Part shown: positions 877 through 41,542 of the stretch, piece by piece | How the letters are laid out: each line of letters starts with the position of its first letter | Position numbering within the stretch: position 1 is the stretch's first letter | Assembly (NCBI GenBank): GCA_029561455.1 | Contig: JAKQIY010000006.1 | Coordinates: forward strand, 142,860 to 206,859 | Direction of reading: 5' to 3' | DNA: 64,000 bases | Source of the DNA: a bacterium | GTDB taxonomy: Bacteria; Zhuqueibacterota; Zhuqueibacteria; Residuimicrobiales; Krinioviventaceae | Notes under the pieces: generated by a model | Database searches by the model: none | What the model saw: only the letters and a program-made list of their open reading frames with translations | Told to the model about the DNA's origin: nothing | Made by a program: the position numbers and the translations under genes

Positions 877-898
877 AAATACCTCCTTAAATTACCGG

Positions 899-3163
899 TT
901 ATAATTGTGAACCAAGGTATGTAATTTTATTTATTTTATGATATATACCAGACCTGAACTCGACAAAATAAATACCGCAGGCCAGAGAATAACCGGCATC
1001 ATCGCGGCCATCCCATTTTATTAAATAATCCTGCCCGCCAACCTTGTTTTCATTCATCAGGTTCCGCACCAGTTGGCCCAGAACATTATAAATTTTAATT
1101 TCAACATGGTGAGTGGATGTTTTAACAGGAAGCATAAATTTTATTTCGGCGCTTTCAACAAACGGGTTGGGCCAGATGTTGAATAATTTAAAATTGACCG
1201 GCAGTTCTTCGCCCGGGGTGTGCTGTAACGCGGAAAAAATATCCAGTTTTCCCCATCCCCACTCGCCGTTGGGTATTTTTTCTACCGGGTATTCCGTATC
1301 GGCTGAATTGGTTAACATATCGCGAACCTGGATGGCCGTGATATCAGGATATTTTTCAAAAATCAGCGCAACCGCGCCGGACACATGAGGCGCAGCCATA
1401 CTGGTGCCACTGGACAGGGCTTCGCGTCCACCTTCCAAAATCAGGGCATTGGGCAATCCCGAGGTTGTTTCCGAAAAAATACTGGCGCTGCTTCCCGGCG
1501 GGGCATACTGCGAATAACTGCTGGCAATGATCTCTCCGGGGGCAACAATTTCCGGTTTTATGCGTTTATCCAGCGTTGGGCCAAAGCTGGTAAAACTGGC
1601 CAATGTGCCAATTGCTATCTGCCCAAAAGGATCAAAAGTTAAATGATTACCATCCAGATCTACCCAGGATTTTTTACTGGTGTATGCGCCAACGGTTATG
1701 ACGTTACGTGCAGTTCCGGGTATGGATATTTTCCCGTCATTAACATTCCCCTCCACAAAAGCCGCCTTCATACTGGCATTGGTAACCCCGGTAATCCAGG
1801 CGTCCACGTCCCCGGCTTGGCCGGAAAATTTCATCTTCCATGTGCCGGCTACCGGAGGCTTGAGTGCGTTAGCATCATTGATATCCACATATATTTCATA
1901 ATTGCCGATCTCTTTATTATAACCGGGCAGGTAGCCGCCGACCGCTTCATAAAATCCATTCCACACATAAACTGTCCCCTCATCCGTATTTTCTTCCGTT
2001 ACTTCACCCTGCATAACCGGGCCAATTCTTTTTCCCGACGGCGTTGTGATGGTGATGCCGACTTTTTGGTTGCTTTGATACCAGATATTAAACAACACCC
2101 GGTCGTTGCCGGCGCCCGGTTTTGGCATATATTCATTTATAGTAAAAGTAACGTCCTTATAGGTAATCCCGTTGCTGAATTGCGCCCGGGCGTGTATATT
2201 GTTGCCGCCGTCATTACCGGCAACCGTTACTACCGCTTTACCGGACTTGCCGGGGCCAACCACCTGGTCGATGGCAAGCTCCACATCCGAGGTGCCGTTA
2301 TGGGCGCCGCTGTGGCCGCCAAAACTCATATTGATAACGCAGGGCATATTCAAAACTGTTGCCAGACTGTCGACGATCTTTAATGCAATGATCTGGTCGG
2401 CAGTCTGGAACTCTTGGCTCATCTCATCGCGGGTAGCTTTAATAATGATCAGACCGGCTTCAGGGGCAACCCCGGCATAAGCGCCAAACGTGCCGTCGGC
2501 GCTGCCGTCGCCGGCGGCTATTCCGGCGACATGCGTGCCATGCCCGGAATAATCCCGCTCGTAAACAAAGCCGTTGCCGTTCAGGGCGTTATTGATATCA
2601 TCTTCAGTATACATAGTGCCGCCGTAAACATTGCCGGGATCGCTCATATCCAGCAAGTATTTAATACGGGTTTTACCGGCGGCGTCAATAAAATCTTCAT
2701 TCTCCCAGTCAATTCCCGAATCAATGATCCCTATCAAAACCCCCTTGCCTGTGTAGCCGAATTGTTCCCGCACTTTAACTGCGCCGATTCTGGCGGCGCT
2801 CACATCCAGACAAGCATAATCGGGCCGTGATGCGGTAATGCGTATAACCTGTGGTAAACCGGCCACTTTATCAAGCCCGGCAACCGGGATAGTGACAACG
2901 GCCAAATTTTTATATATACATTCAATTTTCACACCATACGCTTGCAGTTCATGAACATCGCCCTGAAAAGTAACAATCGCCCTGACTTGCGCGCCCCGGG
3001 CGGTTTTCTGCAATGAATTATCCGGCTGCAAAAAATCCAGGCGCTGCGGGTAGGTAACCAGTAGCCCAAGCTGCGGATCCAGCTTGTTTATCCCTTCCAC
3101 AGCATACAACCCCGCGCTTGTAAGCAGCAATAAAACTATAATTACATACTTGTTCAAAATCAT
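899..3163 (-). CDS. S8 family (subtilisin-like) serine peptidase with a T9SS C-terminal sorting domain.
   Basis: The S8 catalytic triad motifs are present in order: Asp IIDSGIDWENEDF, His GHGTHVAGIAAG, Ser GTSMAAPHVSGAVAL. There is an N-terminal signal peptide. The C-terminus (NIWPNPFVESAEIKF...IKIYNVLGQLV...GIYFVEF...KITYL) is a T9SS CTD. Confidence 0.85.
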   Translation of the reverse strand: MILNKYVIIVLLLLTSAGLYAVEGINKLDPQLGLLVTYPQRLDFLQPDNSLQKTARGAQVRAIVTFQGDVHELQAYGVKIECIYKNLAVVTIPVAGLDKVAGLPQVIRITASRPDYACLDVSAARIGAVKVREQFGYTGKGVLIGIIDSGIDWENEDFIDAAGKTRIKYLLDMSDPGNVYGGTMYTEDDINNALNGNGFVYERDYSGHGTHVAGIAAGDGSADGTFGAYAGVAPEAGLIIIKATRDEMSQEFQTADQIIALKIVDSLATVLNMPCVINMSFGGHSGAHNGTSDVELAIDQVVGPGKSGKAVVTVAGNDGGNNIHARAQFSNGITYKDVTFTINEYMPKPGAGNDRVLFNIWYQSNQKVGITITTPSGKRIGPVMQGEVTEENTDEGTVYVWNGFYEAVGGYLPGYNKEIGNYEIYVDINDANALKPPVAGTWKMKFSGQAGDVDAWITGVTNASMKAAFVEGNVNDGKISIPGTARNVITVGAYTSKKSWVDLDGNHLTFDPFGQIAIGTLASFTSFGPTLDKRIKPEIVAPGEIIASSYSQYAPPGSSASIFSETTSGLPNALILEGGREALSSGTSMAAPHVSGAVALIFEKYPDITAIQVRDMLTNSADTEYPVEKIPNGEWGWGKLDIFSALQHTPGEELPVNFKLFNIWPNPFVESAEIKFMLPVKTSTHHVEIKIYNVLGQLVRNLMNENKVGGQDYLIKWDGRDDAGYSLACGIYFVEFRSGIYHKINKITYLGSQL

Positions 3164-3218
3164 TCACCTGTTATTGTCATTATATCTATTATACTCAAAA
3201 CCGGTTGTGCGGTTCATT

Positions 3219-6200
3219 TTAATGTAAAAGAGCATCGCGTTTTATCCGGGCGTCGCGGAATTCCGGGTCGATCAACAGCGTCCGATCCAATTCCAGGCGG
3301 GCTTTATCGAGTTGTCCTTTGCGTTCATAAGCCAGGGCCAGGTAATAATGAGCCATTGCAAAATCAATATCCTTTTCGGCGGCCGCCTGGAAATGGCGCA
3401 AAGCCTGATCAAGGTTGCCCATCTTCCAGTAACACAAACCGCTATAAAAATATGCCGCGCCGTAATCAGGGTCGAGCTTTATTGCCGCCTGTAATTCCGG
3501 CAAAGCCAGGTCCGGGCGGTTTTGCAAATAAAAACATAAACCTTTATGATGACGCGCCTGGGGGTATTTCGGGTCGAGTTGTACCGCCCGAACAAACATA
3601 TTAAACGCCGCATCCAGCCGGTTTTCTTCCAGATATATCTCACCCTGCGCCTGGTACGCCCGGGCATTGCGGGGATTCAATTTCAACAACGCCTGCAATT
3701 CGGTTTTACGGCGGTCATTTAATCCGTCCAGGTACAAAGCGTTGCGGTTTCCCGGACTCTTGTCCAATGCTTTACGGTAATAACTGCGCGCCTCATGGTA
3801 ACGGCCCAACCAGGCCATAACCTGACCTTTGGCAACCAGTGATTTGGCAGCATCCATCCGCTCCAGGTTCACCTGCACCTGCGAACTGTCCACCACATTA
3901 TATAAATACGGCCAAACCGATTTCTTCAGGTTTCCCAAACTGGTCATTACGTCCGTATTGACTGATACACTCAATTCCCGTGAAAATTCTATATAGGGCA
4001 GGTCATCGGAATTTACCGGCGCAGAAACGCCATAACGCTGCAGGTCGTCTTCAGCCATAATAAAGCAGCTCAGTAGTTCGTAAGGATCATCAAGATTCAC
4101 TTCGGCAAGATCGTTCCTGATCTCTTGTCGGTTGATGCGTTCCAAAAGTATCGCTAAATCGATTTTAAATGGCTGCGGCGTGGCCATTAACAGCATGTGC
4201 GATGGATTAACATACCACAACGAACTGTGCGGAAAGACCAGTTGAAAAGTTTTGATCAGGGACTGGTATTCCAGTTCGGTTATGGCATTAGGCGGCAGCC
4301 AGGCGATGATAATTCCATCCTCCGAAAGTACATTTTTACACATACGGTAAAAGTCCAGGGTGTACAGGTTCGGGCTGATCTTGGGATGGATGGCGTTAAA
4401 AGAGATCATATCATAACGCTTATTAGTGCCTTTGATAAATTCCCGCCCGTCGCCAATGATGAGATTAAATCGCGGATTTTGCAGCACGTTGTGGTTCTGC
4501 TTTTCGAAATACCCGGCGGTTTCTATTTCGTCTTTAACCAGTTCCACACAATCGGTCTGCATATCCGGGTAGAGCATGGAAGCCCACGAGGTGCTGCCGA
4601 AACCAAATCCAACGATCAGGGTGGTTTTGGGATCGGGATGGATCAACAAAGGCAAATGCCCCAGCAGTTTGTGAACCTGCATATCCTGGTAGATCGTAAA
4701 AGCGGTCGACTCGCCGTTAATGTTCAACTCGCGCTCATTGGTAATTTTATCCTGCAAAACCGCAATGGAAGCATCTATGCCCTCTTTATAATACAACAGG
4801 TCATAACGTTTGGACGGCCCGGTAAACTCGACGCTGGCCAGCACCACCGGCTTGCGGTTAATGGTAAAAGCCAGTATGACCAGGGCAATTCCGGCCAGGA
4901 CTAACGGATAGCTCCGGCGCTTGCGGCCCGCATCTGGGTGCAACAATAGCAGTCCGACGCCAATACCTAAATTGACCAAAACGACCAGCGCTATACTGAG
5001 TCGAATGCCGAATACCGGTAAAAGGACAAAACCGGCTAAAAATGACCCGACAATCGAGCCAACCGTATTGGCGGCGTAGACCTCGCCCACCTGACGGCCC
5101 AGTCCTTTTATATCGCGGTGATAGCATTGCACCGCCAGTGGAAATGTCGCGCCCATAAGCAACGTGGGCAGTAACATGACCAGAAAAGACAACAGGAATT
5201 TTACCCCGGTATTCATCCACCAGTTATGGTAACCCAGCGCCTGCCGCAGCGTATCGCTGATTGCATAGAACCGGGCGATGAGCGGTAGCACCGCCAGGGC
5301 GGTCAGGCCGATAAGAATTTCTATCACTGCAAACCAGGTCAGATGATCTTTGATTTTGGGAACAATATGCGAAAAGATATAACTGCCGGCAGCGATGCCG
5401 ATCAAAAACGTGGTCAAAATAGTCGTAAAAGTATAAGTGGTCAGACCAAGAAAATAAAGCAGTGAGCGCGTCCATAACAGTTCATAAGCCAGCGAAGCCA
5501 GCCCGGACAGGGCAAATCCCCACAGGATCAGCCGATAACGACGCTGCGCGGCGGAATTCTCAGGTTGCTTAATGGCGCCGTCCTGTTCTGCAACCGGCTC
5601 AGCAGCAGTATTCTTTTTACCAAGCGATATAAGGTACGCGGTCAGGCCAATAGCTATATTTATAGCTGCGGCCAGATAAATCGTCTGAACAATGCCAAAC
5701 ATCCTGACCAGGAAAAACCCCGTGCCGAAAGCGCCAAGAACCGCGCCCAGGGTATTAAATGAATAAAGATAACCGGAAATTTTACCCGTTTGCTGCCGGC
5801 CGCCGACAAAATAACGGATCAGCACCGGCAAAGTGCCGCCCATTAACACAGTGGGGATCAGAATAATTATAAACGCCAGCAAAAAGCGGATCAGGGCGAA
5901 CACATAAAATTGCGGATGAAACTGGCTATAGATCAATGTATATAAATGGTCGGCGCCTTTAAAGATCAGCGGCGTAAACACAGCGTAAATGCCAATGCCG
6001 ATTTCCAGCAACGCATACAACCTCAACTTGTTCTGACTTTTATCAACCAGGCGGCCAAAGTAATAACTGCCCAGCGATAAACCGGCCATATATGACGACA
6101 CCACTGTGCTGGCGGCAAACGCAGTTACCCCGAAAATCAGTTTTAGAATCCGAATCCAGACAATTTGATAGGCCAGCCCGCTGATACCGGATAAAAAAAA

Positions 6201-6314
6201 TAATCCAATAATTAAAAAATGAATACCGGGTTGTGCAAACAGGGGGGTATTTCGGTCCGGGTGAGGTTCTTTATTGATAACAGCTTTTACTGGTCTTTTC
6301 TTTGCTTTCGCCAC
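3219..6314 (-). CDS. Fused polytopic membrane protein with a spermidine-synthase-like (PABS fold) domain and C-terminal TPR repeats.
   Basis: The N-terminal ~480 aa contain many hydrophobic helices. The middle carries a SAM-methyltransferase/spermidine-synthase-like block (TLIVGFGFGSTSW...DMISFNAIHP...DGIIIAWLP). The C-terminal ~300 aa hold repeated TPR-like units (AYQAQGEIY..., AAYFYSGLCYWKMGNLDQA..., MAHYYLALAYERKGQLDKA). Confidence 0.7.
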   Translation of the reverse strand: MAKAKKRPVKAVINKEPHPDRNTPLFAQPGIHFLIIGLFFLSGISGLAYQIVWIRILKLIFGVTAFAASTVVSSYMAGLSLGSYYFGRLVDKSQNKLRLYALLEIGIGIYAVFTPLIFKGADHLYTLIYSQFHPQFYVFALIRFLLAFIIILIPTVLMGGTLPVLIRYFVGGRQQTGKISGYLYSFNTLGAVLGAFGTGFFLVRMFGIVQTIYLAAAINIAIGLTAYLISLGKKNTAAEPVAEQDGAIKQPENSAAQRRYRLILWGFALSGLASLAYELLWTRSLLYFLGLTTYTFTTILTTFLIGIAAGSYIFSHIVPKIKDHLTWFAVIEILIGLTALAVLPLIARFYAISDTLRQALGYHNWWMNTGVKFLLSFLVMLLPTLLMGATFPLAVQCYHRDIKGLGRQVGEVYAANTVGSIVGSFLAGFVLLPVFGIRLSIALVVLVNLGIGVGLLLLHPDAGRKRRSYPLVLAGIALVILAFTINRKPVVLASVEFTGPSKRYDLLYYKEGIDASIAVLQDKITNERELNINGESTAFTIYQDMQVHKLLGHLPLLIHPDPKTTLIVGFGFGSTSWASMLYPDMQTDCVELVKDEIETAGYFEKQNHNVLQNPRFNLIIGDGREFIKGTNKRYDMISFNAIHPKISPNLYTLDFYRMCKNVLSEDGIIIAWLPPNAITELEYQSLIKTFQLVFPHSSLWYVNPSHMLLMATPQPFKIDLAILLERINRQEIRNDLAEVNLDDPYELLSCFIMAEDDLQRYGVSAPVNSDDLPYIEFSRELSVSVNTDVMTSLGNLKKSVWPYLYNVVDSSQVQVNLERMDAAKSLVAKGQVMAWLGRYHEARSYYRKALDKSPGNRNALYLDGLNDRRKTELQALLKLNPRNARAYQAQGEIYLEENRLDAAFNMFVRAVQLDPKYPQARHHKGLCFYLQNRPDLALPELQAAIKLDPDYGAAYFYSGLCYWKMGNLDQALRHFQAAAEKDIDFAMAHYYLALAYERKGQLDKARLELDRTLLIDPEFRDARIKRDALLH

Positions 6315-6403
6315 TCACTACTCCAATGCAATAACCGGTCACTTTGCAGGCAGGGATTGTCATTTATTCTAATATAATAAATACTTTAATTATATACCAC
6401 TTT

Positions 6404-9400
6404 TTACCGAAGCAAGGTGATTTTTTTTATACCGGAATATGTACCGGCCCTGAACTGCACCAGGTATATTCCGGCGCTGACCGGACGGCCCTGCTCATCC
6501 GTGCCCTGCCAGCGGGCCCGGTATCTGCCGGGCTGCTGCGGCTCCGCTACCAGCGTTTTCACTTTTTGCCCCAGCATATTATAGACCGTCATTTCAACGA
6601 AACTGTTTTCCGGCAGTTCATAGCCGATGACCGTTTCCGCATTGAATGGATTCGGATAATTTTGCCAAAAATCAAAACGGGACGGCTTTTCGTCATGCTG
6701 GTCGGCAATGTTCACTGTGGTTTTATCAAATACAAAAAAATCGTCAATATACCAGCCGGCGTCCTCGGCTTGTCCCGTGCTGCCGAAATGAAAACGCAGC
6801 CGGATTTTTTTATCGGCCCATGGAGTCAAGTCAAACTGTACTTTCTGCCAGACGCTGATGCAGCCGCTGAACCCCGGCTGCCCTGCCAGCGCTAAATTTT
6901 CGGCGGATAATGAATCGCAGGTATAACCCTCCAGGGGATGGATAACCAGCCACAAAACCCCGCCATCATCGGAAAGCTGCACATTGCCGCCGTCATAACA
7001 GGTATTCAAATAATCCATACAATAATAGTGATAGAATTGCAGAAACGGCGCTACAAATCCCGCTAAACTGATCTCCGGGCTGTCCAGTTTATAATCTGCA
7101 AACGGCGTATAATCACCCTTTAAAACCGTGCCCCAAACACGACGGCCGGAATGGGCTTGATCCGGCGCATGATAATACAGGCCCGGCTCCGGTACGCCCC
7201 ATTGCCATAACCCGCTGCCGGTAAAATCTCCGGCATCCGTCTCGAAAGATTCATCTACCACACTAGTTCCCGGTACTAGAATAAAATTACAATCCCCGAA
7301 ATAATCGCCGTCGTTTAACACAAGCTGCCGTTTTTGCGGAACGTAACCGTCATGGCGGACGGCCAGTATCACCGTATCCGCAATAACCCCGGACAATAAA
7401 AACTCACCGCTGCCGGACGTGGTATCGGCAAGACCCTGTCCGCGTATGCCGACAACCGTGCCGGTATGGTCATTCATATCGCTCAAAAGGACAGAGCCGC
7501 CGATCATTTTCGATTGAGCCGGTTGCAGGTAAAGCGGTAGTTCGTTTTGCCCGGCGGCGAGCCACATACTATCGGCATAGGCGCTGTATCCCTGCCGGTA
7601 TACATATATAAAATAATAACCGGCGATCATCTCGGTAAAACCGAAAACGCCGTTTTTATCGCTGGTTGCCGAATATTCCTGTCCCGATAAAACATGGCGC
7701 AGGTAAACAAAAGTTTCCGCGATGGTCAGGCTGTCTGTTTGGCGGTAAACAATGCCGGACAAACCGGCGGCAGCGTTGCCTACGGTAATATCGGTTTGAT
7801 AAAGAGTATATCCTGTTGTACCCAGACTGAACGTTATTTTTCCAGCTTGTTTTGGAACAATTGTAAACGTGTAGCCGATAAAAACCGTATCGAGTCCGCA
7901 GCCACTCACAAAGATTCTTTCCGGCTCCGGGAAGGCGGCAACAGAAATTTCTCCGGGAACGCCCGGCGCCAGGGAAGAATCCAGCCCAATGAACGGTGCG
8001 GCAGCCACAATTGTTATTGCCGAAAAATCGAGAGCGCTCCGTACCGGCAGCCGCCCGGTGTAATCGGGCGCCGGGTCGGCCGGTTTACTACCATAAATAT
8101 AAAGCGGCTGCCCATAAGGACAGTTTATTTCAATATCCGCCGCGCCATCAGCGTCGGTAACAGCTTGGATTGACGAATCCAGGCCGATGCCATGAATAGA
8201 GATCAGGTAATTTGCCAGTGGCGCGCCGCTGTTATCAGCCACATCGATATGCAGTAATTGTTGAACATTCGCAGTTAACGTATCCGGAGTAAAGGTGACC
8301 CGCGGTGGTTCAGGCACGGTAAAATTATACCGGTAAAGTAAATGCCGGTTTTTACTCACCGTCAACAAGGCGTTGTCTGTGGAAAGTGGCTGCTCCAGCG
8401 CAACTACTGCATGGCCATTGTGCGTCATCGCCGCGCCGATCAACACATTGTTTTGCGATAATGCCGTTACCGCGCCGTCAACCGGGCCATGTTCATCCGT
8501 CACTTGCACTTCCAGGCGCTCCGCGCCCGCCGCCAGGGTTTCGGGATGCGCAACCTCCAATATCTCCGGCGCGCCGCGCCAGAGCGGTAACGAAGGATCG
8601 CCGAGAATATTATAGACTTCCATATAAAAATCAGAGTATGGATAGCCGCGGCTATAAAGTTGTAACAGGGCGTCAATTGCCGCCTGGCCAAAACTCTCAT
8701 ACTGTTTATCAAACGCGGCTTGAAAGAATTGCTCCTGCAAATAATAATCCTGGTGCCAGAACGACACCGCCGATGCGCCCCAAAACAACACCGCGCCGCG
8801 CTGTTCATAGCTCAGAAAACTTTCTCCCAAACATTCCATACCGCCCTGAATTTTATAGGCAAAATCCCCGGCATTGCAGCCAAAGCTCAGTGTTAGCGGA
8901 TAACGCCCTGTATTTTGCAAATAATAAAGTTCCACCAGGCTGTAATCATCCAGGTCGCTCCAATAGGTTTCCGAGCCGTGACCGGAATAAACGACCATAG
9001 CGGAGCCGCGGTCAACGGCATCGTTCAATTGCTGGCGATCATCATTGTTAAAAGTCCATATCGAATCGCCGGCGACAGCAATAGGAGTGCAATAGCGATT
9101 TATGGAATTACGGTGTCCCTTTTCCACAAATTCGTGGAAATTTTTATCCCTGGTGGCAATAAATGTGGCGTGGTCAAGCCAGGAGCGATCAGGTGCGATT
9201 AATTCTTCATAAGCTATTATCTTGTCGATCATGCTCCGCAATTGCGTGGTATCGGCAGCCGGCAGCCGCCCGACCAGTATATCCGGGAATATATCGTCAT
9301 CGCCATCCATTGTCGCATAATAGAGGTCTGTAATATGAGGGACATGCGGATTTAAAGAAAATTGCCCGTTAAAAGCCGGTATGTGGGTGATATCGCCGGC

Positions 9401-10333: not shown

Positions 10334-10354
10334 TTATGCTCAGGACATATTTCC

Positions 10355-14440: not shown

Positions 14441-14496
14441 ATCATTTCTCCCGCACTTGATTGTTATTTTGTTGTCTGTCAGTTATACAGAATCTT

Positions 14497-17331
14497 TTAC
14501 CGGACTAGCAACATTTTGTGTATTTGACCGAAATCGCCGGCCTGTAAACGATAAAAATAAATTCCTGAAGCTACATTATTACCCATACTATCGCGGCCTT
14601 GCCAAACTACCTGGTGGTTACCGGCCTTGATCTCGTTATCAAACAGCGTAACCAGTTCGCGCCCCATAATATCGTACACTTTAACTGTGGCATGGGTTGC
14701 TTTGGGTACGTAAAAATCAATACTGGTCTGTGGATTAAAAGGATTCGGATAATTCTGATATAATACATATTGACCGGCAACCGGGAGGTTTTCATCCCGA
14801 ATTCCGGACACCGGGTTTTCTGTCCCTTGCAGCCAGTTTATAACATTACCCATCATTTGCTTGCGGGTAATATTCTTGGTGCCAAATTCATTGACGCCTT
14901 CAAAACTAAAGGCAAAATAGACCAGCCGGTAATCATCTCCACGGTATTTGATAGCAGCGGCTTTATCCATCAGACCGGTGCCAAAGTAGTTTAATAGCGG
15001 ACTGGCCAGGGTGTCCGGCGCCACTATGCTGGCTGAGGTGTTGTTGTTGGCGCCGTTGCCTTCGGTTATAAAAAAGTAGGGCCGGAAGGTTTTGCTGATC
15101 GGGTCGCCGTCAATACCGGCAACCATGACGATCGGACTGCTGGTGGCGGTATCTTCAATGTGCCGCGCATGCAGAATATTTTCGTAAAACAGCCGGCTGG
15201 CGGCATTGCCGGAGCCGATCAGATCATCGCCAATGTTTTGCCCGGTCAGGAACAGTTCGCCGCCGCTCTGCAGAAAGGTTTGAATGGTATTTTGTTCGGC
15301 GGCAGATAATGTGTTTGCCTGGGAACCGGTGAACCATACCACCGTGCCATACTTGTTTAACTGGTCGATATCCGGCGAACCTTTTTGCGCAACCCGCCAG
15401 GTATCATAATAGGTAATATTCAACTCGTCCAGGGCAGATTGATAAAAAGTAATAACCGGAATATTGTTTTCATCTGTCTCATTCCAACTGTCGTCAACCA
15501 CCAGAATATATATATTTTCCATCATAATTATAACATTCAAAGTAGTTATTACCCCCAGCTCGTCTTCCAGACGTAACCGGCAGTTAACAGGATGATAATG
15601 CGCATCCGGCAAAGCTTCAATACCAAAACCATCTGCGCCCGTGGTTGTTTCAGCATCTTCAGCCATGAAGGAATAGATTGCTGTGGAATCGGTAATTGCG
15701 ATAGTCGGATCGTCAGTACTCAACACCGCTGTTACTGTATGCAAATCAGCGCCAAAGTTATTTACTGTAATTGCAATCTGTCCGTATTCTCCGGGGTCGA
15801 GATAGCCGTTGCCATTGCCGCCGCCATCATTCAGGGTATATTCCACATAACCAATGTCACGGGCGTTACTATACAAGTCCGCATACATGGAATCTGCCGA
15901 ATCGCTGATATTATTAACGGCAATTTTGGTAACCCGATCCTGGTAATCCAGACTGTTGGGATTGGTAATACGGTTAAAAAAGCGATTCACTGTGCTGCCC
16001 GGGAATGGATCTTTATCGTCGCCGCCATTACGGCCATAATCAAGATCACGCCGGCCGTCAGCTTCCTCAAGGTCAACAAGTTTGTGATTCTCATCGTCAT
16101 TTTGATTATAACCAACTGTATTATCCACGTGCCAAATCAACAAACCGGAACCCTCAATGGTTTGATCAAAACCCTTTTGACGACGGTTTTCAACCAGGAA
16201 ATACTGCTTGCCGATATCCGCACTTAAACCCAGGTTACCTCCGGAATTATACTGGTAAGGTTCAATATTACCATTCGTCCACAATTTATAAACTACCGGG
16301 GTGTCTTCCACTGCCGGGAAAAAAGCATCAAGAGTATTTTGCTGCACGACTATGGGATCAAGCCAGCCCAACACTTCCTTGCACCAGGCGCTCATATGGC
16401 TGGGATATTGGGCGGAATTGCCGTCGCCGCCCCATGAGCCACCGGCCATCAGGCACCAGTTACCAACCCCTTCCGAAGTTTCGCCATCTTCTTCATCATC
16501 GCGGTCATACAAATCCGGCAGGCCAAGCGAGTGCCCGAACTCGTGACAAAAAACCCCAATCTCGACCATTTTGCCTTTTTCTATTGCCGGTTGAATGGTA
16601 TACTCGTCGATCTTGATAAAACCGCCATTCACAGATACATCTTGAGTGGAATAAGCCTGGCCAAAATAGGCGCTATATACAAAAGAATGCGACCAGATGC
16701 CCCTGCCGCCCTCTTCCGCGCCGCCGCCGGAATGAACGATAATCATCACATCCACATAACCGTCATCATCGCCGGAATTGGGTATTCCGTCCGGGCCATC
16801 GTCATCATACTGCCCATAATCGACCGAGTCGTCCGATATTTGAAACAATTCACGCAGCAGTAAACCGGTATGCCCGCTGTCGTCATAATAATACTCGCTG
16901 TTGCCCGACACCTGGAACCAGCCATGCACCTGGCCGGTCAGATCAAACTGACCATAAGACACCTCGTGGTAATAATCACGCATGGAGCCGGTCTTCCAGT
17001 TACCAAACAGTTTACTCTGTAATGTCTCTGTCTTCCATTCCTGTTCAACATCCGAATACTGTACGCACAGAACCGGTAGGTGAGCGTGCACAAAAGGTGG
17101 TTCATAAGGGGCAGCCGCTTTTTTGCTTGACTGTACGGCTCGTTTTTGTTCCCTGAACTGGATAATTTTACTCTTTAATCCCTTTTCCGGCATATAAAAA
17201 GCGGGATTGCTTTTAATATTTCGCAACATATACGACGGAATTTTCACATCTTGTGTGCGCGGCGGCACAATAGCCAAGCTGGCTGCCGCGCTGCACAACA
17301 ACAAAATCCATACACTTGCAAATTTTTTCAT
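14497..17331 (-). CDS. M6 family (immune inhibitor A-like) zinc metallopeptidase with a T9SS C-terminal sorting domain.
   Basis: The zinc motif HEFGHSLGLPDLYD (HExxH followed by a D-rich block, as in InhA/M6) is present, with a signal peptide. The CTD reads NYPNPFNPQTSIDFYVP...VKVYDIMGRELVTLFD...GIYFYRL...HKMLLVR. Confidence 0.7.
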   Translation of the reverse strand: MKKFASVWILLLCSAAASLAIVPPRTQDVKIPSYMLRNIKSNPAFYMPEKGLKSKIIQFREQKRAVQSSKKAAAPYEPPFVHAHLPVLCVQYSDVEQEWKTETLQSKLFGNWKTGSMRDYYHEVSYGQFDLTGQVHGWFQVSGNSEYYYDDSGHTGLLLRELFQISDDSVDYGQYDDDGPDGIPNSGDDDGYVDVMIIVHSGGGAEEGGRGIWSHSFVYSAYFGQAYSTQDVSVNGGFIKIDEYTIQPAIEKGKMVEIGVFCHEFGHSLGLPDLYDRDDEEDGETSEGVGNWCLMAGGSWGGDGNSAQYPSHMSAWCKEVLGWLDPIVVQQNTLDAFFPAVEDTPVVYKLWTNGNIEPYQYNSGGNLGLSADIGKQYFLVENRRQKGFDQTIEGSGLLIWHVDNTVGYNQNDDENHKLVDLEEADGRRDLDYGRNGGDDKDPFPGSTVNRFFNRITNPNSLDYQDRVTKIAVNNISDSADSMYADLYSNARDIGYVEYTLNDGGGNGNGYLDPGEYGQIAITVNNFGADLHTVTAVLSTDDPTIAITDSTAIYSFMAEDAETTTGADGFGIEALPDAHYHPVNCRLRLEDELGVITTLNVIIMMENIYILVVDDSWNETDENNIPVITFYQSALDELNITYYDTWRVAQKGSPDIDQLNKYGTVVWFTGSQANTLSAAEQNTIQTFLQSGGELFLTGQNIGDDLIGSGNAASRLFYENILHARHIEDTATSSPIVMVAGIDGDPISKTFRPYFFITEGNGANNNTSASIVAPDTLASPLLNYFGTGLMDKAAAIKYRGDDYRLVYFAFSFEGVNEFGTKNITRKQMMGNVINWLQGTENPVSGIRDENLPVAGQYVLYQNYPNPFNPQTSIDFYVPKATHATVKVYDIMGRELVTLFDNEIKAGNHQVVWQGRDSMGNNVASGIYFYRLQAGDFGQIHKMLLVR

Positions 17332-17441
17332 GTTATTTCCTGATATATATTAACTCTTCCGGCAATTTATTAATTACAGGGCCGGAAATTTTTTCTCCGC
17401 AGCTGCCTGAATGGACACCCGTGATTTATAAATATAATAAA

Positions 17442-20261
17442 TTATCGCAACAAAATCATCTTTTTTGTTTCACACCGGTTACCCACAGTTAATGTATAAA
17501 AATATATACCGCTTGTGGCCGGCACACCGGTTTCCGCCAGACCGTTCCAGGTGAGGCAATAAGAACCTGCCGGCTGACGCTCTTCATGCAGGGTAGCTAT
17601 TTTTTGTCCGCATACATTATATATGTACAGACTGGCCACGCCCGCTGCCGGCAAAGTATATGTAATTGTGGTTGTTGAATTGAACGGATTAGGGAAATTC
17701 ACGGCCAATTCAAACATATCCGGTATGTTTCCGGTCAGGGCATTAGTTTCTTCAACAGCGGTCTTTACGCTGCCCTGCAGCCATTCCAAAGTTTTTTCCA
17801 GCAGCTTGCGCCTGACATCATAACCGGAGTGTTTATTGTTAACCGCTTCCAGGCTGAATGCATAATAAACCAGTTTATACTTGCCGTTGTACCGGGTTGC
17901 TGCACATTGGCCGGGTATTTCCAGGTCGGTATAGGTTAAAAACGGTTCCGCCAGGGAATCGGGCGCTACCGCGCCGGGAGAAACCTGGTTGCCGGCGCCA
18001 TCGCCCCCGGCGGCATAAAAATATGGGCGAAATTCATCGGAAATAGGATCGCCTGCCAGTCCGGAAATCCTCAAGACCCCGGTAACCGGTACATTATCGG
18101 TCAATAAGCGGGCGTGCATCCAGTCTCTCAAAAAACTGCGCTGCACGTCATCGCCGTTTGCCATTTGTTTGCCGATATTCTGCCCGCATAACAACAGCTT
18201 CCAACCGCTGTACATCAAATACCGGAAATTTGCCATTTCATTAGGAGTAAAGGTCGCTTTCTGAGAACCGGTGAACCAGATAATCACGCCATAAGGGATC
18301 ATGTCATAGCGGGTGGGATTCTGTTTGTCCTTAACGCTCCACACATCATATTCAACATAATCTATGCCGTTCAGCGCATCCCGGTAATAATTCACTATCC
18401 GCTTTCCGTTTTTATCCGTCTCGTCCTGGCTGTCGTCTACCAATAATATCCGGTTGTTTTCCATATAGATGATCACATCACGGGTTATGGTATAGCCATT
18501 ATCGGCAGCCAGATGTAATTTACACAACAGCGGATGCCGGATTGTTCCCGCGGCCAAGGTTATTACAAAAGGATCGGCAACATTGGCCTGTATTTCATCT
18601 TCGCCAATACCTTTATACACAGCCTGCGCATCGGCTATATGCAGGGCAGGGTCGTCACTGCTCAATTGCGCATTTAAAGCATTGATATATCCACCATAAT
18701 TTTTTAACCTGATATACAGGTTGATTGTTTCACCAGGGTTGAGGTATTTACGCAGGGTATCCTGGTTCAGGTAATACCCGTCGCAGGCAATATCATCGGC
18801 AAACGCCTGGATATTGGCAATCATCGCAGATCCGTCACGATGAATATTTTCAACCGCTATTTTACTCGGCTTGCCGTCATAACCAAGCGAATTAGGTAGA
18901 CTGGTTCGGTTAAAATTACGGTTATTGGCGGCGCCGGGAAAGATATCACCCGCATTGCCCCGATTAAGGGCGCAATCCAGGTCGTCCTGCCCGTCCGCTT
19001 CTTCCAAATCTAAAAATTTGTGATTCTCAAAATCATTGCCAAGCAAATAGGACAGGCTATTATCAACATGCCACAATAAAAAACCTTCGCCCGGTAAATT
19101 GCTATCAAAACCGTGCTTTTGCCGGTTTTCCAGCAAAAAATATTCCCGACCCAGTTGTTCAACAAGCCCAAGATCGTTTTGATATATAAAAGGTGCAATT
19201 TGGCCTTTTGTCCATAATTTGTAAACTACCGGTTCGGTTTCACACGCCGGCACAGGCATATCGTCCAGGTTTTCGGTTAAAATCAGCGGCGTTACCCATC
19301 CCAGGGCTTGCTTACACCAGGCGCTAAAATGAACCGGCGTCTGCGGTGATTTGCCATTCCCGCCCCATGAGCCGTACCCCATTACACACCAGATTCCCAC
19401 TCCTGCTGAACTGTAATCGCGGTCATATAAATCCGGCAGACCCAAAGCATGACCAAATTCGTGACAAAAAACCCCGATGGAAACCATATCGTTCTGCTGC
19501 ATGGCCGGAACGATCATATAATCATCAATTAATATAGTTTCCCCACTAGCCCGGCTATCATTGGTCGTAAAACAATCACCGTTAAGTTTACTATATTGAG
19601 AAAAATGCGACCATATTTCCGGACCCCCGGCTTCTTCGGCGCCAACCCCGGAATGGACCAGGATAACGACGTCGACATAGCCGTCATCATCCCCGGAATT
19701 GGGAATACCGTCGCTGCCATCGTTATCATAAAGACTGAAATCAATACCGGTATCAAAAAAGGTCAATGCTTCTTTTAACAGCTCGCCTGCATTCCCCCGC
19801 TCGCGTTCATAATAAACGCTGTTGCCGGTTGCCTGGTACCAACCATACACATCACCATCCGGAATAAACCGGCTATATGATACTTCCCGGTAATAATCCT
19901 GCATGGAGCCGGTCGGCCAGGCGCCAAACAACATTTGCTGCAAATCGGCAATAGGCCATTCTTCCCTTTTTACATCCGCAAAGCGGACGCACAATACCGG
20001 CAGATCAACCGTTACGGGCGCCTGACGGTAGTCGGGGCTGGAGCCCCCGGCAAGTGTTTGGCTGCGATACATGCGCATGGTCTGCTGAAAACCGCGTTTT
20101 GCCCGGTAATAAACAGGGTCACGGGTAATGTTTTGCAGCATATCGGCTGGAATCCGAACTGTAGCTTCACGCGGAGGCGCAATTGCATAGACAAACGCTG
20201 GTAGTAAAATAATAACCAGAAATATTTTTTTCATCGTTTTATCAAGTGAACAAACCGGCAT
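17442..20261 (-). CDS. M6 family zinc metallopeptidase, a tandem paralog of the preceding gene, with a T9SS CTD.
   Basis: HEFGHALGLPDLYD is present, and the protein is collinear with 14497-17331 over its whole length, including the same GIPNSGDDDGYVDV block. The CTD reads NFPNPFNSTTTITYTLP...LYIYNVCGQKIATL...GIYFYTL...KKMILLR. An alternative start at MKKIFL (ATG 20234) would give a cleaner signal peptide. Confidence 0.7.
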   Translation of the reverse strand: MPVCSLDKTMKKIFLVIILLPAFVYAIAPPREATVRIPADMLQNITRDPVYYRAKRGFQQTMRMYRSQTLAGGSSPDYRQAPVTVDLPVLCVRFADVKREEWPIADLQQMLFGAWPTGSMQDYYREVSYSRFIPDGDVYGWYQATGNSVYYERERGNAGELLKEALTFFDTGIDFSLYDNDGSDGIPNSGDDDGYVDVVILVHSGVGAEEAGGPEIWSHFSQYSKLNGDCFTTNDSRASGETILIDDYMIVPAMQQNDMVSIGVFCHEFGHALGLPDLYDRDYSSAGVGIWCVMGYGSWGGNGKSPQTPVHFSAWCKQALGWVTPLILTENLDDMPVPACETEPVVYKLWTKGQIAPFIYQNDLGLVEQLGREYFLLENRQKHGFDSNLPGEGFLLWHVDNSLSYLLGNDFENHKFLDLEEADGQDDLDCALNRGNAGDIFPGAANNRNFNRTSLPNSLGYDGKPSKIAVENIHRDGSAMIANIQAFADDIACDGYYLNQDTLRKYLNPGETINLYIRLKNYGGYINALNAQLSSDDPALHIADAQAVYKGIGEDEIQANVADPFVITLAAGTIRHPLLCKLHLAADNGYTITRDVIIYMENNRILLVDDSQDETDKNGKRIVNYYRDALNGIDYVEYDVWSVKDKQNPTRYDMIPYGVIIWFTGSQKATFTPNEMANFRYLMYSGWKLLLCGQNIGKQMANGDDVQRSFLRDWMHARLLTDNVPVTGVLRISGLAGDPISDEFRPYFYAAGGDGAGNQVSPGAVAPDSLAEPFLTYTDLEIPGQCAATRYNGKYKLVYYAFSLEAVNNKHSGYDVRRKLLEKTLEWLQGSVKTAVEETNALTGNIPDMFELAVNFPNPFNSTTTITYTLPAAGVASLYIYNVCGQKIATLHEERQPAGSYCLTWNGLAETGVPATSGIYFYTLTVGNRCETKKMILLR

Positions 20262-20461
20262 CTTGATATAATTAGCCTGATATTGGCTTTCCTGAAAATA
20301 TGTTGTATCAATAAATTAAAAATTTTTTAATTTTGCTATTGCATTTATCAATCTTTTTTTTTATACTTCAACTAGTATAAAATACTATCCGGATTTAAAT
20401 TTTTACCTTACCAAGTTTACAAATAAAATTACTCATTTACCATAAAAAAAACGGATGAATT

Positions 20462-22951: not shown

Positions 22952-22963
22952 CATGGTAACTCT

Positions 22964-23971: not shown

Positions 23972-24020
23972 AAGAATTATACTTTTCATAAACGCTACAT
24001 GAAATTGCAAAAGAGGGGTT

Positions 24021-25055: not shown

Positions 25056-25085
25056 CACAACTCCAAAAGCTGAAAAAGGGCTGTT

Positions 25086-26078: not shown

Positions 26079-26128
26079 TAGAGTTATTAATTTTTAAATA
26101 CAACTCCAAAAGCTGAAAAAGGACTGTT

Positions 26129-27127: not shown

Positions 27128-27174
27128 GTACATTTATTTTTATAAAAGCTACTTAAAATTGCAAAAGAGGGATT

Positions 27175-32416: not shown

Positions 32417-32450
32417 TATTTAACTCCTTGAAAAATTATAATATCAGTCC

Positions 32451-41531: not shown

Positions 41532-41542
41532 AGTTATTCTCC

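What the first reader, a model, noticed from the sequence alone, without database searches (positions are those of the whole stretch)
899..20261. 19-kb same-strand island of five giant secreted peptidases, all T9SS cargo
Five consecutive minus-strand genes encode 750-1360-aa peptidases of three catalytic classes: S8 (twice), a C25 gingipain-like enzyme, and tandem M6 InhA-like paralogs. Each has a signal peptide and a T9SS C-terminal domain. A spermidine-synthase-like/TPR membrane protein is embedded among them. Such a dense, class-diverse protease cluster suggests a dedicated extracellular proteolytic or predatory lifestyle module. The tandem M6 pair (14497-17331 and 17442-20261) are collinear paralogs.
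Basis: partly seen in the sequence, partly recalled or inferred. Interest (0 to 1): 0.5.

Follow-up and report, generated by a model that had tools for sequence, protein, structure and literature searches.

The report
Conserved secreted-protease gene cluster with transporter
An uncultured KSB1-like bacterium keeps five intact secreted proteases of three catalytic types next to an outer-membrane transporter, most likely a kit for feeding on outside protein: a sound annotation of known enzyme families, not a new mechanism.

Summary
Six minus-strand ORFs (899-20261) encode a CspB-like S8 subtilase, a fused MFS/spermidine-synthase-like/TPR membrane protein, a gingipain-like C25 peptidase, a thermitase-like S8 subtilase and two M6 InhA-like paralogs (44% identical, collinear). 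All five peptidases pass TIGR04183, the type-A T9SS sorting-domain model. All keep their catalytic residues, which are also invariant in orthologs.

It is not a mobile island. It is a chromosomal locus with conserved gene order in at least five related uncultured genomes; the nearest named one is candidate division KSB1. The conserved unit extends beyond the finding:
- The protease genes are transcribed divergently from a highly conserved TonB-dependent receptor.
- That receptor is followed by 1-5 tandem lipoprotein paralogs (20462-28215).
- The embedded membrane protein is a fixed member and more conserved than any peptidase, yet its spermidine-synthase-like domain lacks the catalytic aspartates.

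Best reading: a protein-utilisation locus in which T9SS endopeptidases feed a TonB-dependent uptake system. This is inferred, not shown. The T9SS machinery could not be checked, and "predatory" is untested. I rate it a new variant of a known kind, of moderate interest.

The parts
430..876 (-). Small 148-aa coiled-coil-like protein with no family. It lies immediately downstream of the last protease gene and is conserved at this position in relatives.
   Evidence: ORF. There is no Pfam or NCBIfam hit. Orthologs of 59-77% identity sit at the same position in L003, L004, L006, L011 and L013. The + strand ORF 446-904 is its shadow.
899..3163 (-). S8 subtilase, CspB-like (754 aa). It has a signal peptide, a CspB-type prodomain, a catalytic domain with an inserted beta domain between the oxyanion Asn and the Ser, and a T9SS type-A CTD. 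Catalytic residues are D148, H208, N317 and S588.
   Evidence: Pfam: PF00082 160.5 bits, PF18425 28.8, PF18962 28.3. TIGR04183 scores 26.8 vs cutoff 23. It aligns to the Csp proteases 9sj6 and 4i0w through the catalytic motifs. The motifs are invariant in 4 orthologs.
3219..6314 (-). Fused MFS-like membrane domain (12+1 predicted helices, residues 29-484), spermidine-synthase-fold domain (about 500-790) and TPR domain (810-1030). The aminopropyltransferase catalytic residues are absent: GGGDG becomes GFGFGS, and D-S-T-D-P becomes F-N-A-I-H-P.
   Evidence: NF037959 scores 127.6 vs cutoff 40 and PF01564 scores 61.3. Alignment to T. maritima SpeE 1INL is. The motifs are invariant in 6 orthologs, and the same degenerate pattern appears in 120 family members. 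AlphaFold2 gives pLDDT 88.6 and pTM 0.85. Foldseek matches spermidine synthases at TMt 0.66-0.77. The gene sits at the same place in the cluster in L003, L004, L005, L006 and L011, and stays in the rearranged cluster of L007.
6404..10333 (-). C25 gingipain-like cysteine peptidase (1309 aa). It has a signal peptide, a C25 propeptide, a catalytic domain (H452, C486), an Ig-like domain, CarboxypepD_reg-like domains, a MAM-like domain and a T9SS CTD.
   Evidence: Pfam: PF01364 226 bits, PF08126 45, PF03785 36.7, PF13620 55.7. TIGR04183 scores 33.9. It aligns to RgpB (4ief, 1cvr) with GHGSE and C-x-x-GDF matched. H452 and C486 are invariant in 8 orthologs.
10355..14440 (-). S8 subtilase, thermitase-like (1361 aa). 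It has a signal peptide, a fervidolysin-type N-prodomain, a catalytic domain (D187, H271, N365, S430), about 750 aa of uncharacterised beta-rich domains, a MAM-like domain and a T9SS CTD.
   Evidence: PF00082 scores 176.2 and PF22148 scores 29.9. TIGR04183 scores 33.8. Thermitase 1thm matches at E = 2e-53, aligned through the D, H, N and S motifs. The motifs are kept in 7 orthologs and paralogs.
14497..17331 (-). M6 InhA-like metallopeptidase M6a (944 aa). It has a signal peptide, a catalytic domain with H263-E264-x-x-H267...D273, a middle Ig-like domain shared with the long S8, a weakly DUF4350/DUF4159-like region and a T9SS CTD.
   Evidence: TIGR03296 scores 195.7 vs cutoff 110.8, PF05547 scores 105.9 and TIGR04183 scores 39.1. 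It aligns to InhA 4yu5 across the zinc site. The motif FCHEFGHxLGLPDLYD is invariant in 7 sequences.
17442..20261 (-). M6 InhA-like metallopeptidase M6b, a collinear paralog of M6a. The likely true start is the ATG at 20234, giving 930 aa. The zinc site is H267-E268-x-x-H271...D277 in 939-aa numbering.
   Evidence: M6b is 44% identical to M6a over its full length, with the alignment starting at residue 10. TIGR03296 scores 196.2 and TIGR04183 scores 37.5. A 930-aa gene call exists in the JGI contig.
20262..20461 (.). A/T-rich 200-bp divergent intergenic region between M6b and the TonB-dependent receptor. It is the presumed site of the two divergent promoters.
   Evidence: The sequence was read. 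The same divergent arrangement occurs in L169, L170 and L172. Aligning four such regions gave no conserved motif.
20462..22951 (+). TonB-dependent receptor (829 aa) with an N-terminal CarboxypepD_reg domain and a Plug domain. It is the most conserved gene of the locus.
   Evidence: PF13715 scores 69.1 and PF07715 scores 30.3. Orthologs are 93, 79, 69, 65 and 55% identical. It lies adjacent and divergent to the protease genes in L169, L170 and L172, lies inside the cluster in L007, and sits at the contig end in L171. It is not SusC/RagA by TIGR04056, at 42 vs cutoff 368.
22964..28215 (+). Five tandem paralogous lipoprotein genes of about 335 aa each. Each has a lipobox Cys18, an N-terminal beta-sandwich and a beta-propeller. 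They follow the receptor gene directly.
   Evidence: ORFs are. The alignment shows the invariant Cys. DNA repeats have a period of about 1050 nt. AlphaFold2 gives pLDDT 83, with only generic beta-propeller matches. Relatives carry 1-4 copies after the receptor gene.

Best explanation
Region 430-28215 is a conserved chromosomal locus of an uncultured bacterium related to candidate division KSB1 (FCB superphylum).

**Minus-strand arm.** It is probably one operon: the gaps are 21-110 bp and no intergenic terminator-like site was found. It encodes five endopeptidase zymogens of three catalytic classes: two M6, one thermitase-like S8, one gingipain-like C25 and one CspB-like S8. Each has an N-terminal Sec signal peptide and a type-A T9SS C-terminal sorting domain. 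The two S8 enzymes and the C25 enzyme also have a detected prodomain. This arm also encodes an inner-membrane MFS-like/spermidine-synthase-fold/TPR protein.

**Plus-strand arm.** It encodes a TonB-dependent outer-membrane receptor followed by an array of beta-sandwich/beta-propeller lipoproteins.

**Proposed mechanism.**
1. The peptidases cross the inner membrane by Sec and fold in the periplasm.
2. The T9SS recognises them through the CTD.
3. They are released or anchored at the cell surface and activated by prodomain removal.
4. There they cut extracellular proteins with complementary specificities.
5. The products, peptides or protein-bound nutrients, are captured by the lipoproteins and imported through the TonB-dependent receptor.
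6. The MFS-like protein acts at the inner membrane, either as an importer or as a periplasm-facing partner of the cargo.

**What is shown.** Domain identities, intact catalytic sites, the CTDs, paralogy, conserved gene order, and the degenerate spermidine-synthase site.

**What is inferred.** Co-transcription, secretion by the T9SS, the substrate of the receptor, and any role of the membrane protein.
For: **Domains and cutoffs.**

**Catalytic residues.** They align to InhA, RgpB, thermitase and CspB-like structures. They are invariant in orthologs.

**Sorting domains.** All five CTDs, and five further CTDs in the window, share the N-Y-P-N-P-F-N ... G-I-Y-F-Y ... K-K-M-x-L motifs.

**Gene order.** M6-M6-S8-C25-MFS-S8-148aa is identical in GCA_964399735.1 and KSB1 GCA_016934825.1. 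With an extra S8 paralog, it is also found in CAXXMD01 and OY843751.1. The core M6-S8-C25-MFS is kept in L005, where the flanks differ.

**Receptor arm.** The receptor and lipoprotein arm is divergent from the protease arm in L169, L170 and L172. In L007 the receptor and one lipoprotein gene have moved inside the cluster, between the S8 and MFS genes. Linkage therefore survives rearrangement.

**Selection.** The receptor (93/79/69/65/55% identity) and the MFS protein (84/70/65/61/50%) are more conserved than the peptidases (C25 61/43/38/38%). This fits core machinery combined with fast-evolving extracellular enzymes.

**Terminators.** No minus-strand terminator-like site falls in an intergenic gap.

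**Precedent.** P. gingivalis grows on protease-generated peptides imported by the TonB-dependent RagAB system (bioRxiv 10.1101/755678, abstract).
Against: - No T9SS machinery gene (porK/L/M/N, sprA, porU, porV) is in the 64-kb window among the ORFs scanned. The rest of the genome could not be searched.
- The receptor is not a SusC/RagA family member (42 vs 368 bits). Its best, sub-threshold similarity is to heme/hemoglobin/transferrin receptors (92 vs 324), so its substrate could be heme or iron rather than peptides.
- No SusD/RagB-like gene is present.
- Outside this clade the links vanish. A 38%-identical MFS homolog (L008) and a 55%-identical receptor homolog in Gemmatimonadota (L173) have no protease neighbours. 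Of 80 distant M6 loci, only L089, itself a close relative of the cluster, repeats the M6-S8 pair, and six more have a single distant S8- or C25-like neighbour. Part of the conservation may therefore be shared ancestry rather than functional coupling.
- In the closest relatives the housekeeping flanks are syntenic too.
- The promoter and terminator scans are uninformative for this lineage.
Confidence: 0.6

Rival explanations
1. Antagonism or predation module. The secreted proteases are weapons that lyse or damage neighbouring cells or host tissue. The receptor arm is an unrelated neighbour.
For: The enzymes are diverse endopeptidases with surface or extracellular targeting. InhA and gingipains are virulence factors in their model organisms (established knowledge). 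The window is rich in other surface and secreted proteins and carries a large curli locus.
Against: The window holds no toxin, immunity, contact-dependent or lytic-enzyme genes. Conserved linkage to a TonB-dependent uptake system, including after rearrangement, is better explained by nutrient acquisition. Published genome analyses of KSB1 describe heterotrophs or mixotrophs, and neither paper mentions peptidases or secretion.
Confidence: 0.12
2. There is no functional unit. The genes are independently acting secreted proteins that sit together because this genome region accumulates T9SS cargo genes through tandem duplication, and relatives keep the order by descent.
For: Ten CTD proteins occur in 64 kb, so cargo genes are dense here generally. 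Duplications are evident: M6a/M6b, an extra S8 paralog in some relatives, and 1-5 lipoprotein copies. In the closest relatives the housekeeping flanks are syntenic as well. Distant homologs of the M6, MFS and receptor genes lack these neighbours.
Against: The core order persists where the flanks have changed (L005). Linkage of M6, S8, MFS, receptor and lipoprotein persists after internal rearrangement (L007). It holds at 38-50% protein identity, a divergence at which unselected gene order is usually lost (established knowledge). The intergenic gaps of 21-110 bp on one strand fit an operon.
Confidence: 0.2
3. Secretion or maturation machinery. The C25 protein is a PorU-type sortase and the other peptidases process T9SS or curli substrates, so the cluster serves cell-surface biogenesis rather than feeding.
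For: The C25 protein has a partial hit to the PorU model (127.8 bits) and to the PorU structure 6za2 (E = 1e-5). A curli locus and many CTD proteins lie nearby.
Against: The PorU model cutoff is 420 and the PorU2 cutoff is 450; neither is met. The best structural relatives are the gingipains RgpB and Kgp (E = 5e-29). The protein has a gingipain-type propeptide and Ig-like domain.
Confidence: 0.05

Closest known systems
Gingipains (RgpA/RgpB/Kgp) plus the RagAB oligopeptide importer of Porphyromonas gingivalis
   Same: Both have a C25 catalytic domain with a His/Cys dyad, an N-terminal propeptide, an Ig-like domain and a T9SS CTD. In both, secreted endopeptidases would supply a TonB-dependent outer-membrane importer whose barrel carries an N-terminal CarboxypepD_reg-like domain.
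   Different: Here the proteases and the receptor are in one conserved locus. The receptor fails the SusC/RagA model. There is no RagB/SusD-like lid; instead there are beta-sandwich/beta-propeller lipoproteins. The C25 enzyme carries CarboxypepD_reg and MAM-like modules instead of hemagglutinin/adhesin domains. The organism lies outside Bacteroidota.
T9SS-secreted peptidases of Flavobacterium and other Bacteroidota (for example F. columnare secreted peptidases, Bergeyella KP-43 subtilases)
   Same: They are multi-domain S8 and metallopeptidases with a signal peptide, prodomain and type-A CTD, thought to act in protein degradation (titles and abstracts).
   Different: Different phylum. The five enzymes of three classes sit in one conserved gene cluster that includes a non-protease membrane protein.
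Immune inhibitor A (InhA, MEROPS M6) of Bacillus
   Same: The catalytic domain and the zinc site HEXXHXXGXXD are shared.
   Different: Only about 200 residues align to the InhA structure. The C-terminal domains differ: an Ig-like domain shared with the long S8 and a region with weak DUF4350/DUF4159 similarity. A T9SS CTD is added.
CspB germination protease of Clostridia (S8 with retained prodomain and inserted jelly-roll)
   Same: The 754-aa S8 has its best structural-sequence matches to Csp proteases, including the region between the oxyanion Asn and the catalytic Ser and a CspB-type prodomain.
   Different: It is far below the CspBA and CspC equivalog cutoffs (148 vs 1250; 114 vs 675). It carries a signal peptide and a T9SS CTD. 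The organism is Gram-negative with no sporulation context.
Polysaccharide utilisation loci (SusC/SusD-type PULs) of Bacteroidota
   Same: The logic is the same: secreted or surface hydrolases sit beside a TonB-dependent transporter, surface lipoproteins and an inner-membrane MFS-type protein.
   Different: There is no SusD, and the receptor is not in the SusC/RagA family. The enzymes are peptidases. The MFS-like protein is fused to a degenerate spermidine-synthase fold and to TPRs.
Fused MFS/spermidine synthase family (NCBIfam NF037959)
   Same: The embedded protein is a member (127.6 vs cutoff 40). It shares the family-wide motifs GFG[MF]G..T, E591, D622-G-R and Y-D-x-I-S..I-H-P.
   Different: Only in this clade is the gene embedded in a protease cluster. 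I found no published function for the family.

Membership tests
T9SS type-A cargo (TIGR04183 / PF18962 C-terminal sorting domain) | C-terminal sorting domain scoring above the curated cutoff | tested here: met
   TIGR04183 scores 26.8, 33.9, 33.8, 39.1 and 37.5 vs cutoff 23 for the five peptidases. Pfam PF18962 passes its cutoff of 27 in three; C25 (23.7) and M6b (20.9) fall below it. The shared motifs are shown.
T9SS type-A cargo | N-terminal Sec signal peptide | tested here: met
   Direct reading shows a basic n-region followed by a hydrophobic core in all five. For M6b this holds from the second Met. No signal-peptide predictor was available.
T9SS type-A cargo | T9SS machinery (PorK/L/M/N, SprA/Sov, PorU, PorV) encoded in the same genome | not testable with these tools
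   None was found among the window's ORFs. The rest of the genome could not be fetched. The ten CTD proteins in the window are indirect support only.
T9SS type-A cargo | Secretion and CTD removal demonstrated | not testable with these tools
   This needs proteomics or a genetic system.
Subtilases (MEROPS S8 / PF00082) | Family HMM above cutoff, and the Asp-His-Ser triad plus oxyanion Asn in the right order | tested here: met
   PF00082 scores 160.5 and 176.2 vs cutoff 21.8. Residues D148/H208/N317/S588 and D187/H271/N365/S430 align to Csp proteases and thermitase and are invariant in orthologs.
Csp germination proteases (NF040809 CspBA, NF040808 CspC) | Equivalog-level score | tested here: not met
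   Scores are 148.5 vs cutoff 1250 and 114.2 vs cutoff 675. The protein resembles CspB in fold and insertion only.
Gingipain-type C25 peptidases (PF01364, PF08126, PF03785) | Catalytic domain, propeptide and Ig-like domain above cutoffs, with the His/Cys dyad aligned to RgpB | tested here: met
   Scores are 226, 45 and 36.7 bits vs cutoffs 23, 22 and 25. H452 and C486 align to the GHGSE and C-x-x-GDF motifs of RgpB and are invariant in 8 orthologs.
PorU T9SS sortase (NF033707) / PorU2 (NF052324) | Equivalog-domain score | tested here: not met
   Scores are 127.8 vs cutoff 420 and 85 vs cutoff 450. The PorU structure matches at E = 1e-5, against 5e-29 for RgpB.
M6 metallopeptidases (TIGR03296 / PF05547, InhA-like) | Domain HMM above cutoff, and the HEXXHXXGXXD zinc site | tested here: met
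   TIGR03296 scores 195.7 and 196.2 vs cutoff 110.8. HEFGH(S/A)LGLPD aligns to InhA 4yu5 and is invariant in 7 sequences.
T9SS-dependent M6-like inactivated metalloprotease (NF052323) | Equivalog score and a degenerate active site | tested here: not met
   Scores are 61.7 and 45.1 vs cutoff 600. The zinc site is intact.
Spermidine synthase / polyamine aminopropyltransferase (TIGR00417, PRK00811) | Spermidine synthase fold | tested here: met
   PF01564 scores 61.3 vs cutoff 22.9. Foldseek matches SpeE structures at TMt 0.66-0.77 using the AlphaFold2 model with pLDDT 88.6.
Spermidine synthase / polyamine aminopropyltransferase | Gatekeeper Asp of GGGDG and the two catalytic Asp of the D-S-x-D-P motif; equivalog score | tested here: not met
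   GGGDG becomes GFGFGS, and D-S-T-D-P becomes F-N-A-I-H-P, on alignment to 1INL. These changes are invariant in orthologs and family-wide. TIGR00417 scores 63.8 vs cutoff 249.55.
Fused MFS/spermidine synthase (NF037959) | Subfamily HMM above cutoff | tested here: met
   The score is 127.6 vs cutoff 40.
SusC/RagA TonB-linked outer membrane proteins (TIGR04056) and SusC/SusD-type utilisation loci | Receptor above the TIGR04056 cutoff, and an adjacent SusD/RagB-like lipoprotein | tested here: not met
   The receptor scores 42 vs cutoff 368.25. The adjacent lipoproteins have no SusD or RagB hit, and their model is a beta-sandwich plus a beta-propeller.

The most novel reading that the evidence does not exclude
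The MFS-like/spermidine-synthase-fold/TPR protein could be a dedicated inner-membrane partner of T9SS protease cargo in this lineage. In this reading its catalytically degenerate spermidine-synthase fold and TPR array face the periplasm. That topology rests on 12 MFS-like helices plus a 13th, and on a K/R-rich N-terminus and cytoplasmic loops. From there the protein would hold, sort or sense the zymogens, or their peptide products, before export. This would give a first function to a very large, uncharacterised protein family (more than 3,400 members at E <= 1e-20) and add a new accessory layer to type IX secretion outside Bacteroidota.
Probability: 0.12. Interest if true: 0.7.

Novelty: new variant of a known kind. 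Interest (0 to 1): 0.38.

Why it matters
Candidate division KSB1 (Zhuqueibacterota) has no cultured member. The two genome surveys I checked do not mention peptidases, secretion systems or curli.

A conserved locus that joins five active-looking endopeptidases of three classes to a TonB-dependent uptake system predicts that protein degradation is a core trait of this clade. It also gives a concrete marker set for reading metatranscriptomes from sediments and digesters.

The locus shows a utilisation-locus logic (secreted hydrolases, outer-membrane receptor, surface lipoproteins, inner-membrane MFS-type protein) outside Bacteroidota and without SusD. That is relevant to how such loci evolved in the FCB superphylum.

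It also provides the first genomic-context clue for the large family of fused MFS/spermidine-synthase-like/TPR proteins, whose 'synthase' domain I show has lost the catalytic aspartates family-wide.

None of this overturns current understanding. The enzymes themselves are ordinary members of well-known families.

Tried and rejected
1. **Single-protein genome scan.** Scanning one genome per species with the C25 protein found nothing. An alignment-based scan then found five orthologous loci.
2. **PorU hypothesis for the C25 protein.** Rejected on model cutoffs and on much stronger gingipain similarity.
3. **Inactivated-M6 hypothesis (NF052323).** Rejected: the score is low and the zinc site is intact.
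4. **Canonical spermidine synthase for the embedded gene.** Rejected: the catalytic and gatekeeper Asp residues are missing.
5. **SusC/RagA membership of the receptor.** Rejected.
6. **Mobile or foreign island.** There is no tRNA and no integrase or transposase family among the ORFs scanned with Pfam. GC is only slightly above the window mean, and the flanks are syntenic in relatives.
7. **Promoter and terminator scan.** Promoter-like sites lie mostly inside genes. Terminator-like sites are no more frequent than in shuffles, and none is in a minus-strand intergenic gap. This is weakly compatible with an operon but not informative for this lineage.
8. **Alignment of the divergent intergenic region from four genomes.** No conserved motif.
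9. **Wide context test.** Of 80 metagenome loci carrying distant M6 homologs, one close relative repeats the M6-S8 pair and six have a single distant S8- or C25-like neighbour. Distant MFS and receptor homologs also lack protease neighbours. The association is therefore clade-specific, not a family property.
10. **Fold search of the lipoprotein model.** Only generic WD40/beta-propeller matches (TM about 0.4), so no functional assignment.
11. **Permissive Pfam search of the unassigned M6 and S8 regions.** Only sub-threshold DUF4350/DUF4159 and MAM/Reelin-B hints.
12. **Literature.** I found no paper on this cluster, on T9SS proteases in KSB1, or on the fused MFS/spermidine synthase family.

Full report
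**1.

The six minus-strand ORFs are at exactly the stated coordinates:
- 899-3163 (754 aa)
- 3219-6314 (1031 aa)
- 6404-10333 (1309 aa)
- 10355-14440 (1361 aa)
- 14497-17331 (944 aa)
- 17442-20261 (939 aa)

Pfam and NCBIfam assign them as follows.

| ORF | Assignment |
|---|---|
| 899-3163 | S8 subtilase with a CspB-type prodomain |
| 3219-6314 | Fused MFS/spermidine-synthase/TPR protein (NF037959, 127.6 vs cutoff 40) |
| 6404-10333 | C25 peptidase with C25 propeptide and C-terminal Ig-like domain |
| 10355-14440 | S8 subtilase with a fervidolysin-type prodomain |
| 14497-17331 and 17442-20261 | M6 peptidases (TIGR03296, 195.7 and 196.2 vs cutoff 110.8) |

The N-termini read as Sec signal peptides. 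For M6b this is true from the second Met. That is also where the alignment with M6a starts and where one public gene call begins, so its start is probably 20234.

**2. The enzymes look active**

- The M6 pair aligns to the InhA structure through HEFGH(S/A)LGLPD.
- The C25 protein aligns to RgpB, with GHGSE (H452) and C-x-x-GDF (C486) matched.
- The long S8 aligns to thermitase at E = 2e-53 through the Asp, His, Asn and Ser motifs.
- The short S8 aligns best to clostridial Csp proteases, including their insertion between the oxyanion Asn and the catalytic Ser.
- In orthologs taken from related genomes, every one of these residues is kept.
- The M6 paralogs are 44% identical and collinear over their whole length.
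- The C25 protein is not a PorU sortase: it scores 127.8 against a cutoff of 420 and is far closer to gingipains than to PorU.
- The M6 proteins are not the 'inactivated M6' family.

**3. Origin**

The exact proteins occur on metagenome contigs and in an NCBI MAG labelled only 'bacterium'. The nearest named relatives are candidate division KSB1 MAGs.

Only five species-representative genomes carry a full-length ortholog of the C25 protein.

Two genome surveys of KSB1/Zhuqueibacterota do not mention peptidases, secretion or curli.

**4. The cluster is a conserved locus, larger than the finding**

*Protease arm.* The order M6b-M6a-S8-C25-MFS-S8-148aa is identical in GCA_964399735.1 and in KSB1 GCA_016934825.1. 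CAXXMD01 and OY843751.1 have the same order with a second long-S8 paralog inserted. A JGI contig with different flanks keeps M6-S8-C25-MFS.

*Receptor arm.* In the window this arm runs divergently from M6b. It consists of a TonB-dependent receptor (20462-22951) followed by five tandem paralogs of about 335 aa (22964-28215).
- The same divergent arrangement, with 1-4 paralogs, occurs in GCA_964399735.1, CAXXMD01 and an 850-kb contig of another genome.
- In the KSB1 MAG the receptor lies at a contig end and the M6 gene at the start of another contig.
- In a more distant relative the receptor and one paralog have moved inside the cluster, between the long S8 and the MFS gene.

*Conservation ranking across these genomes.*

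| Protein | % identity in relatives |
|---|---|
| TonB-dependent receptor | 93 / 79 / 69 / 65 / 55 |
| MFS protein | 84 / 70 / 65 / 61 / 50 |
| C25 peptidase | 61 / 43 / 38 / 38 |

The other peptidases fall between the MFS protein and C25.

*Limits of the association.* It is clade-specific:
- A 38%-identical MFS homolog has no protease neighbours.
- A 55%-identical receptor homolog in Gemmatimonadota has none either.
- Of 80 metagenome loci with distant M6 homologs, only one close relative repeats the M6-S8 pair and six more have a single distant S8- or C25-like neighbour.

*Other points.* There is no tRNA, integrase or transposase, so 'island' is only a description. The gaps between the minus-strand genes are 21-110 bp, and no terminator-like site falls in them. 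This is compatible with one operon but is not proof.

**5. The non-protease members**

*Membrane protein.*
- It has a high-confidence AlphaFold2 model (pLDDT 88.6, pTM 0.85).
- The model shows two six-helix halves (29-232 and 254-457), a thirteenth helix (464-484), a complete spermidine-synthase fold and a TPR solenoid.
- Foldseek matches SpeE structures at TMt 0.66-0.77.
- On alignment to T. maritima SpeE, the gatekeeper Asp of GGGDG is Phe and the two catalytic Asp residues are Asn and His.
- This state is invariant in the orthologs and general in 120 family members.
- The protein is therefore not a canonical aminopropyltransferase.
- The K/R distribution and the odd helix count suggest the C-terminal domains face the periplasm. 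This is an inference; I could not inspect coordinates.

*Tandem paralogs after the receptor.*
- They are lipoproteins with an invariant lipobox Cys.
- Each has an N-terminal beta-sandwich and a beta-propeller.
- They have no specific structural relative.

*Receptor.*
- It fails the SusC/RagA model (42 vs 368).
- Its best similarity, sub-threshold, is to heme/transferrin-type receptors.

**6. Mechanism**

My best-supported reading, at about 0.6 confidence, is a protein-utilisation locus.
1. Sec export, then T9SS recognition of the CTD.
2. Surface display or release, and zymogen activation.
3. Attack on extracellular protein by three catalytic classes.
4. Capture of the products by the lipoproteins and uptake through the TonB-dependent receptor.
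5. The MFS-like protein acts at the inner membrane.

The precedent is P. gingivalis, which grows on protease-generated peptides taken up by RagAB (bioRxiv 10.1101/755678).

- Shown: domains, active sites, CTDs and conserved linkage.
- Inferred: co-transcription, secretion, the receptor's substrate, and any role of the MFS-like protein.

Rival readings:
- Clustering without coupling, kept by descent (about 0.2).
- An antagonism or predation module (about 0.12).
- A surface-biogenesis or sortase role (about 0.05).

**7. Novelty**

The enzymes are ordinary members of S8, C25 and M6. T9SS-secreted proteases are well known in Bacteroidota.

What differs:
- The lineage is KSB1-like.
- Five enzymes of three classes are fixed in one conserved locus.
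- They are linked to a non-SusC receptor with beta-propeller lipoproteins instead of SusD/RagB.
- A degenerate MFS/spermidine-synthase-fold/TPR protein is a constant member.

I rate this a new variant of a known kind, with moderate interest (0.38).

The main untested point is whether these genomes encode the T9SS machinery at all. The window holds none, and I had no way to search the rest of the genome.

Noticed in passing
window 29836-42115 (minus strand): A very large curli-type locus. It runs CsgE (41543-42115), CsgF (41091-41531) and an unusually long CsgG (474 aa, 39667-41091), then seven consecutive Curlin_rpt proteins of 291-619 aa (38643-39545, 37690-38610, 36624-37499, 34663-36522, 33562-34587, 32451-33395, 31112-32416), then an OmpA-like protein (29836-30996). 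Seven curlin paralogs in one operon outside Proteobacteria and Bacteroidota may deserve its own look.
   Followed up: no
window 22964-28215 (+) and 46994-47968 (-): Five tandem lipoprotein paralogs of about 335 aa follow the TonB-dependent receptor (31-83% identical; DNA repeat period about 1050 nt; GC 0.35-0.37). A sixth, diverged copy sits 19 kb away. Copy number varies from 1 to 5 among relatives. The model is a beta-sandwich plus a beta-propeller with no specific structural match.
   Followed up: partly
window 48205-63341 (+): Five further T9SS type-A CTD proteins: a CotH kinase-like protein (48205-49860), two LVIVD/NosD beta-helix proteins (51072-53609, 53993-57454), an ASH/DUF1573 Ig protein (58423-59859) and a 1151-aa MAM-like protein (59886-63341). 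That makes ten CTD proteins in 64 kb. A short LVIVD protein without a CTD is at 50154-50870.
   Followed up: partly
window 28242-29744 (-) and 29836-30996 (-): Adjacent genes encode a CarboxypepD_reg domain plus a TolB/PD40-like beta-propeller, and a coiled-coil plus OmpA domain. From memory, this domain set resembles the T9SS component PorE (TPR, beta-propeller, CRD, OmpA_C) split into two genes. I did not test this.
   Followed up: no
window 3219-6314 and homologs P0121-P0240: In the 120 best-scoring homologs of this protein (more than 3,400 at E <= 1e-20), the fused MFS/spermidine-synthase family has G-F-G-[MF]-G in place of GGGDG. A conserved His replaces the second catalytic Asp (109 of 121 sequences; the other 11 keep Asp). 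The first catalytic Asp position is Gly, Asn or Asp. The name 'spermidine synthase' is therefore probably wrong for most of the family.
   Followed up: partly
window M6a residues 493-609, M6b 510-594, long S8 residues 493-611: A domain of about 115 residues with no Pfam assignment is shared between the M6 paralogs and the long S8 (27-34% identity). The C25 and long S8 also share a MAM-like module just before the CTD (31% over 169 residues). This points to domain shuffling among the cluster's enzymes.
   Followed up: partly
L004/L010 (KSB1 GCA_016934825.1), C25 ortholog: The KSB1 ortholog of the C25 peptidase is 1011 aa instead of about 1300. Its alignment to the window protein stops at residue 931 of the window protein, and Pfam finds no MAM-like module in it.
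   Followed up: no
window 45491-46120 (+) and 43401-44765 (-): A SatD-family protein (114.8 bits) lies near a 454-aa ORF that has no family assignment, only a weak GvpG-like stretch.
   Followed up: no
window 446-904 (+): This 152-aa ORF is a shadow of the conserved 148-aa minus-strand gene at 430-876. It has no family hit, and public gene calls use the minus-strand frame.
   Followed up: yes
L171 5813-8338 (KSB1 GCA_016934825.1): In the KSB1 relative, a sigma-54-dependent response regulator and a histidine kinase lie directly after the receptor and lipoprotein array. They are a candidate regulator of the locus. No such pair is at the corresponding place in the window.
   Followed up: no
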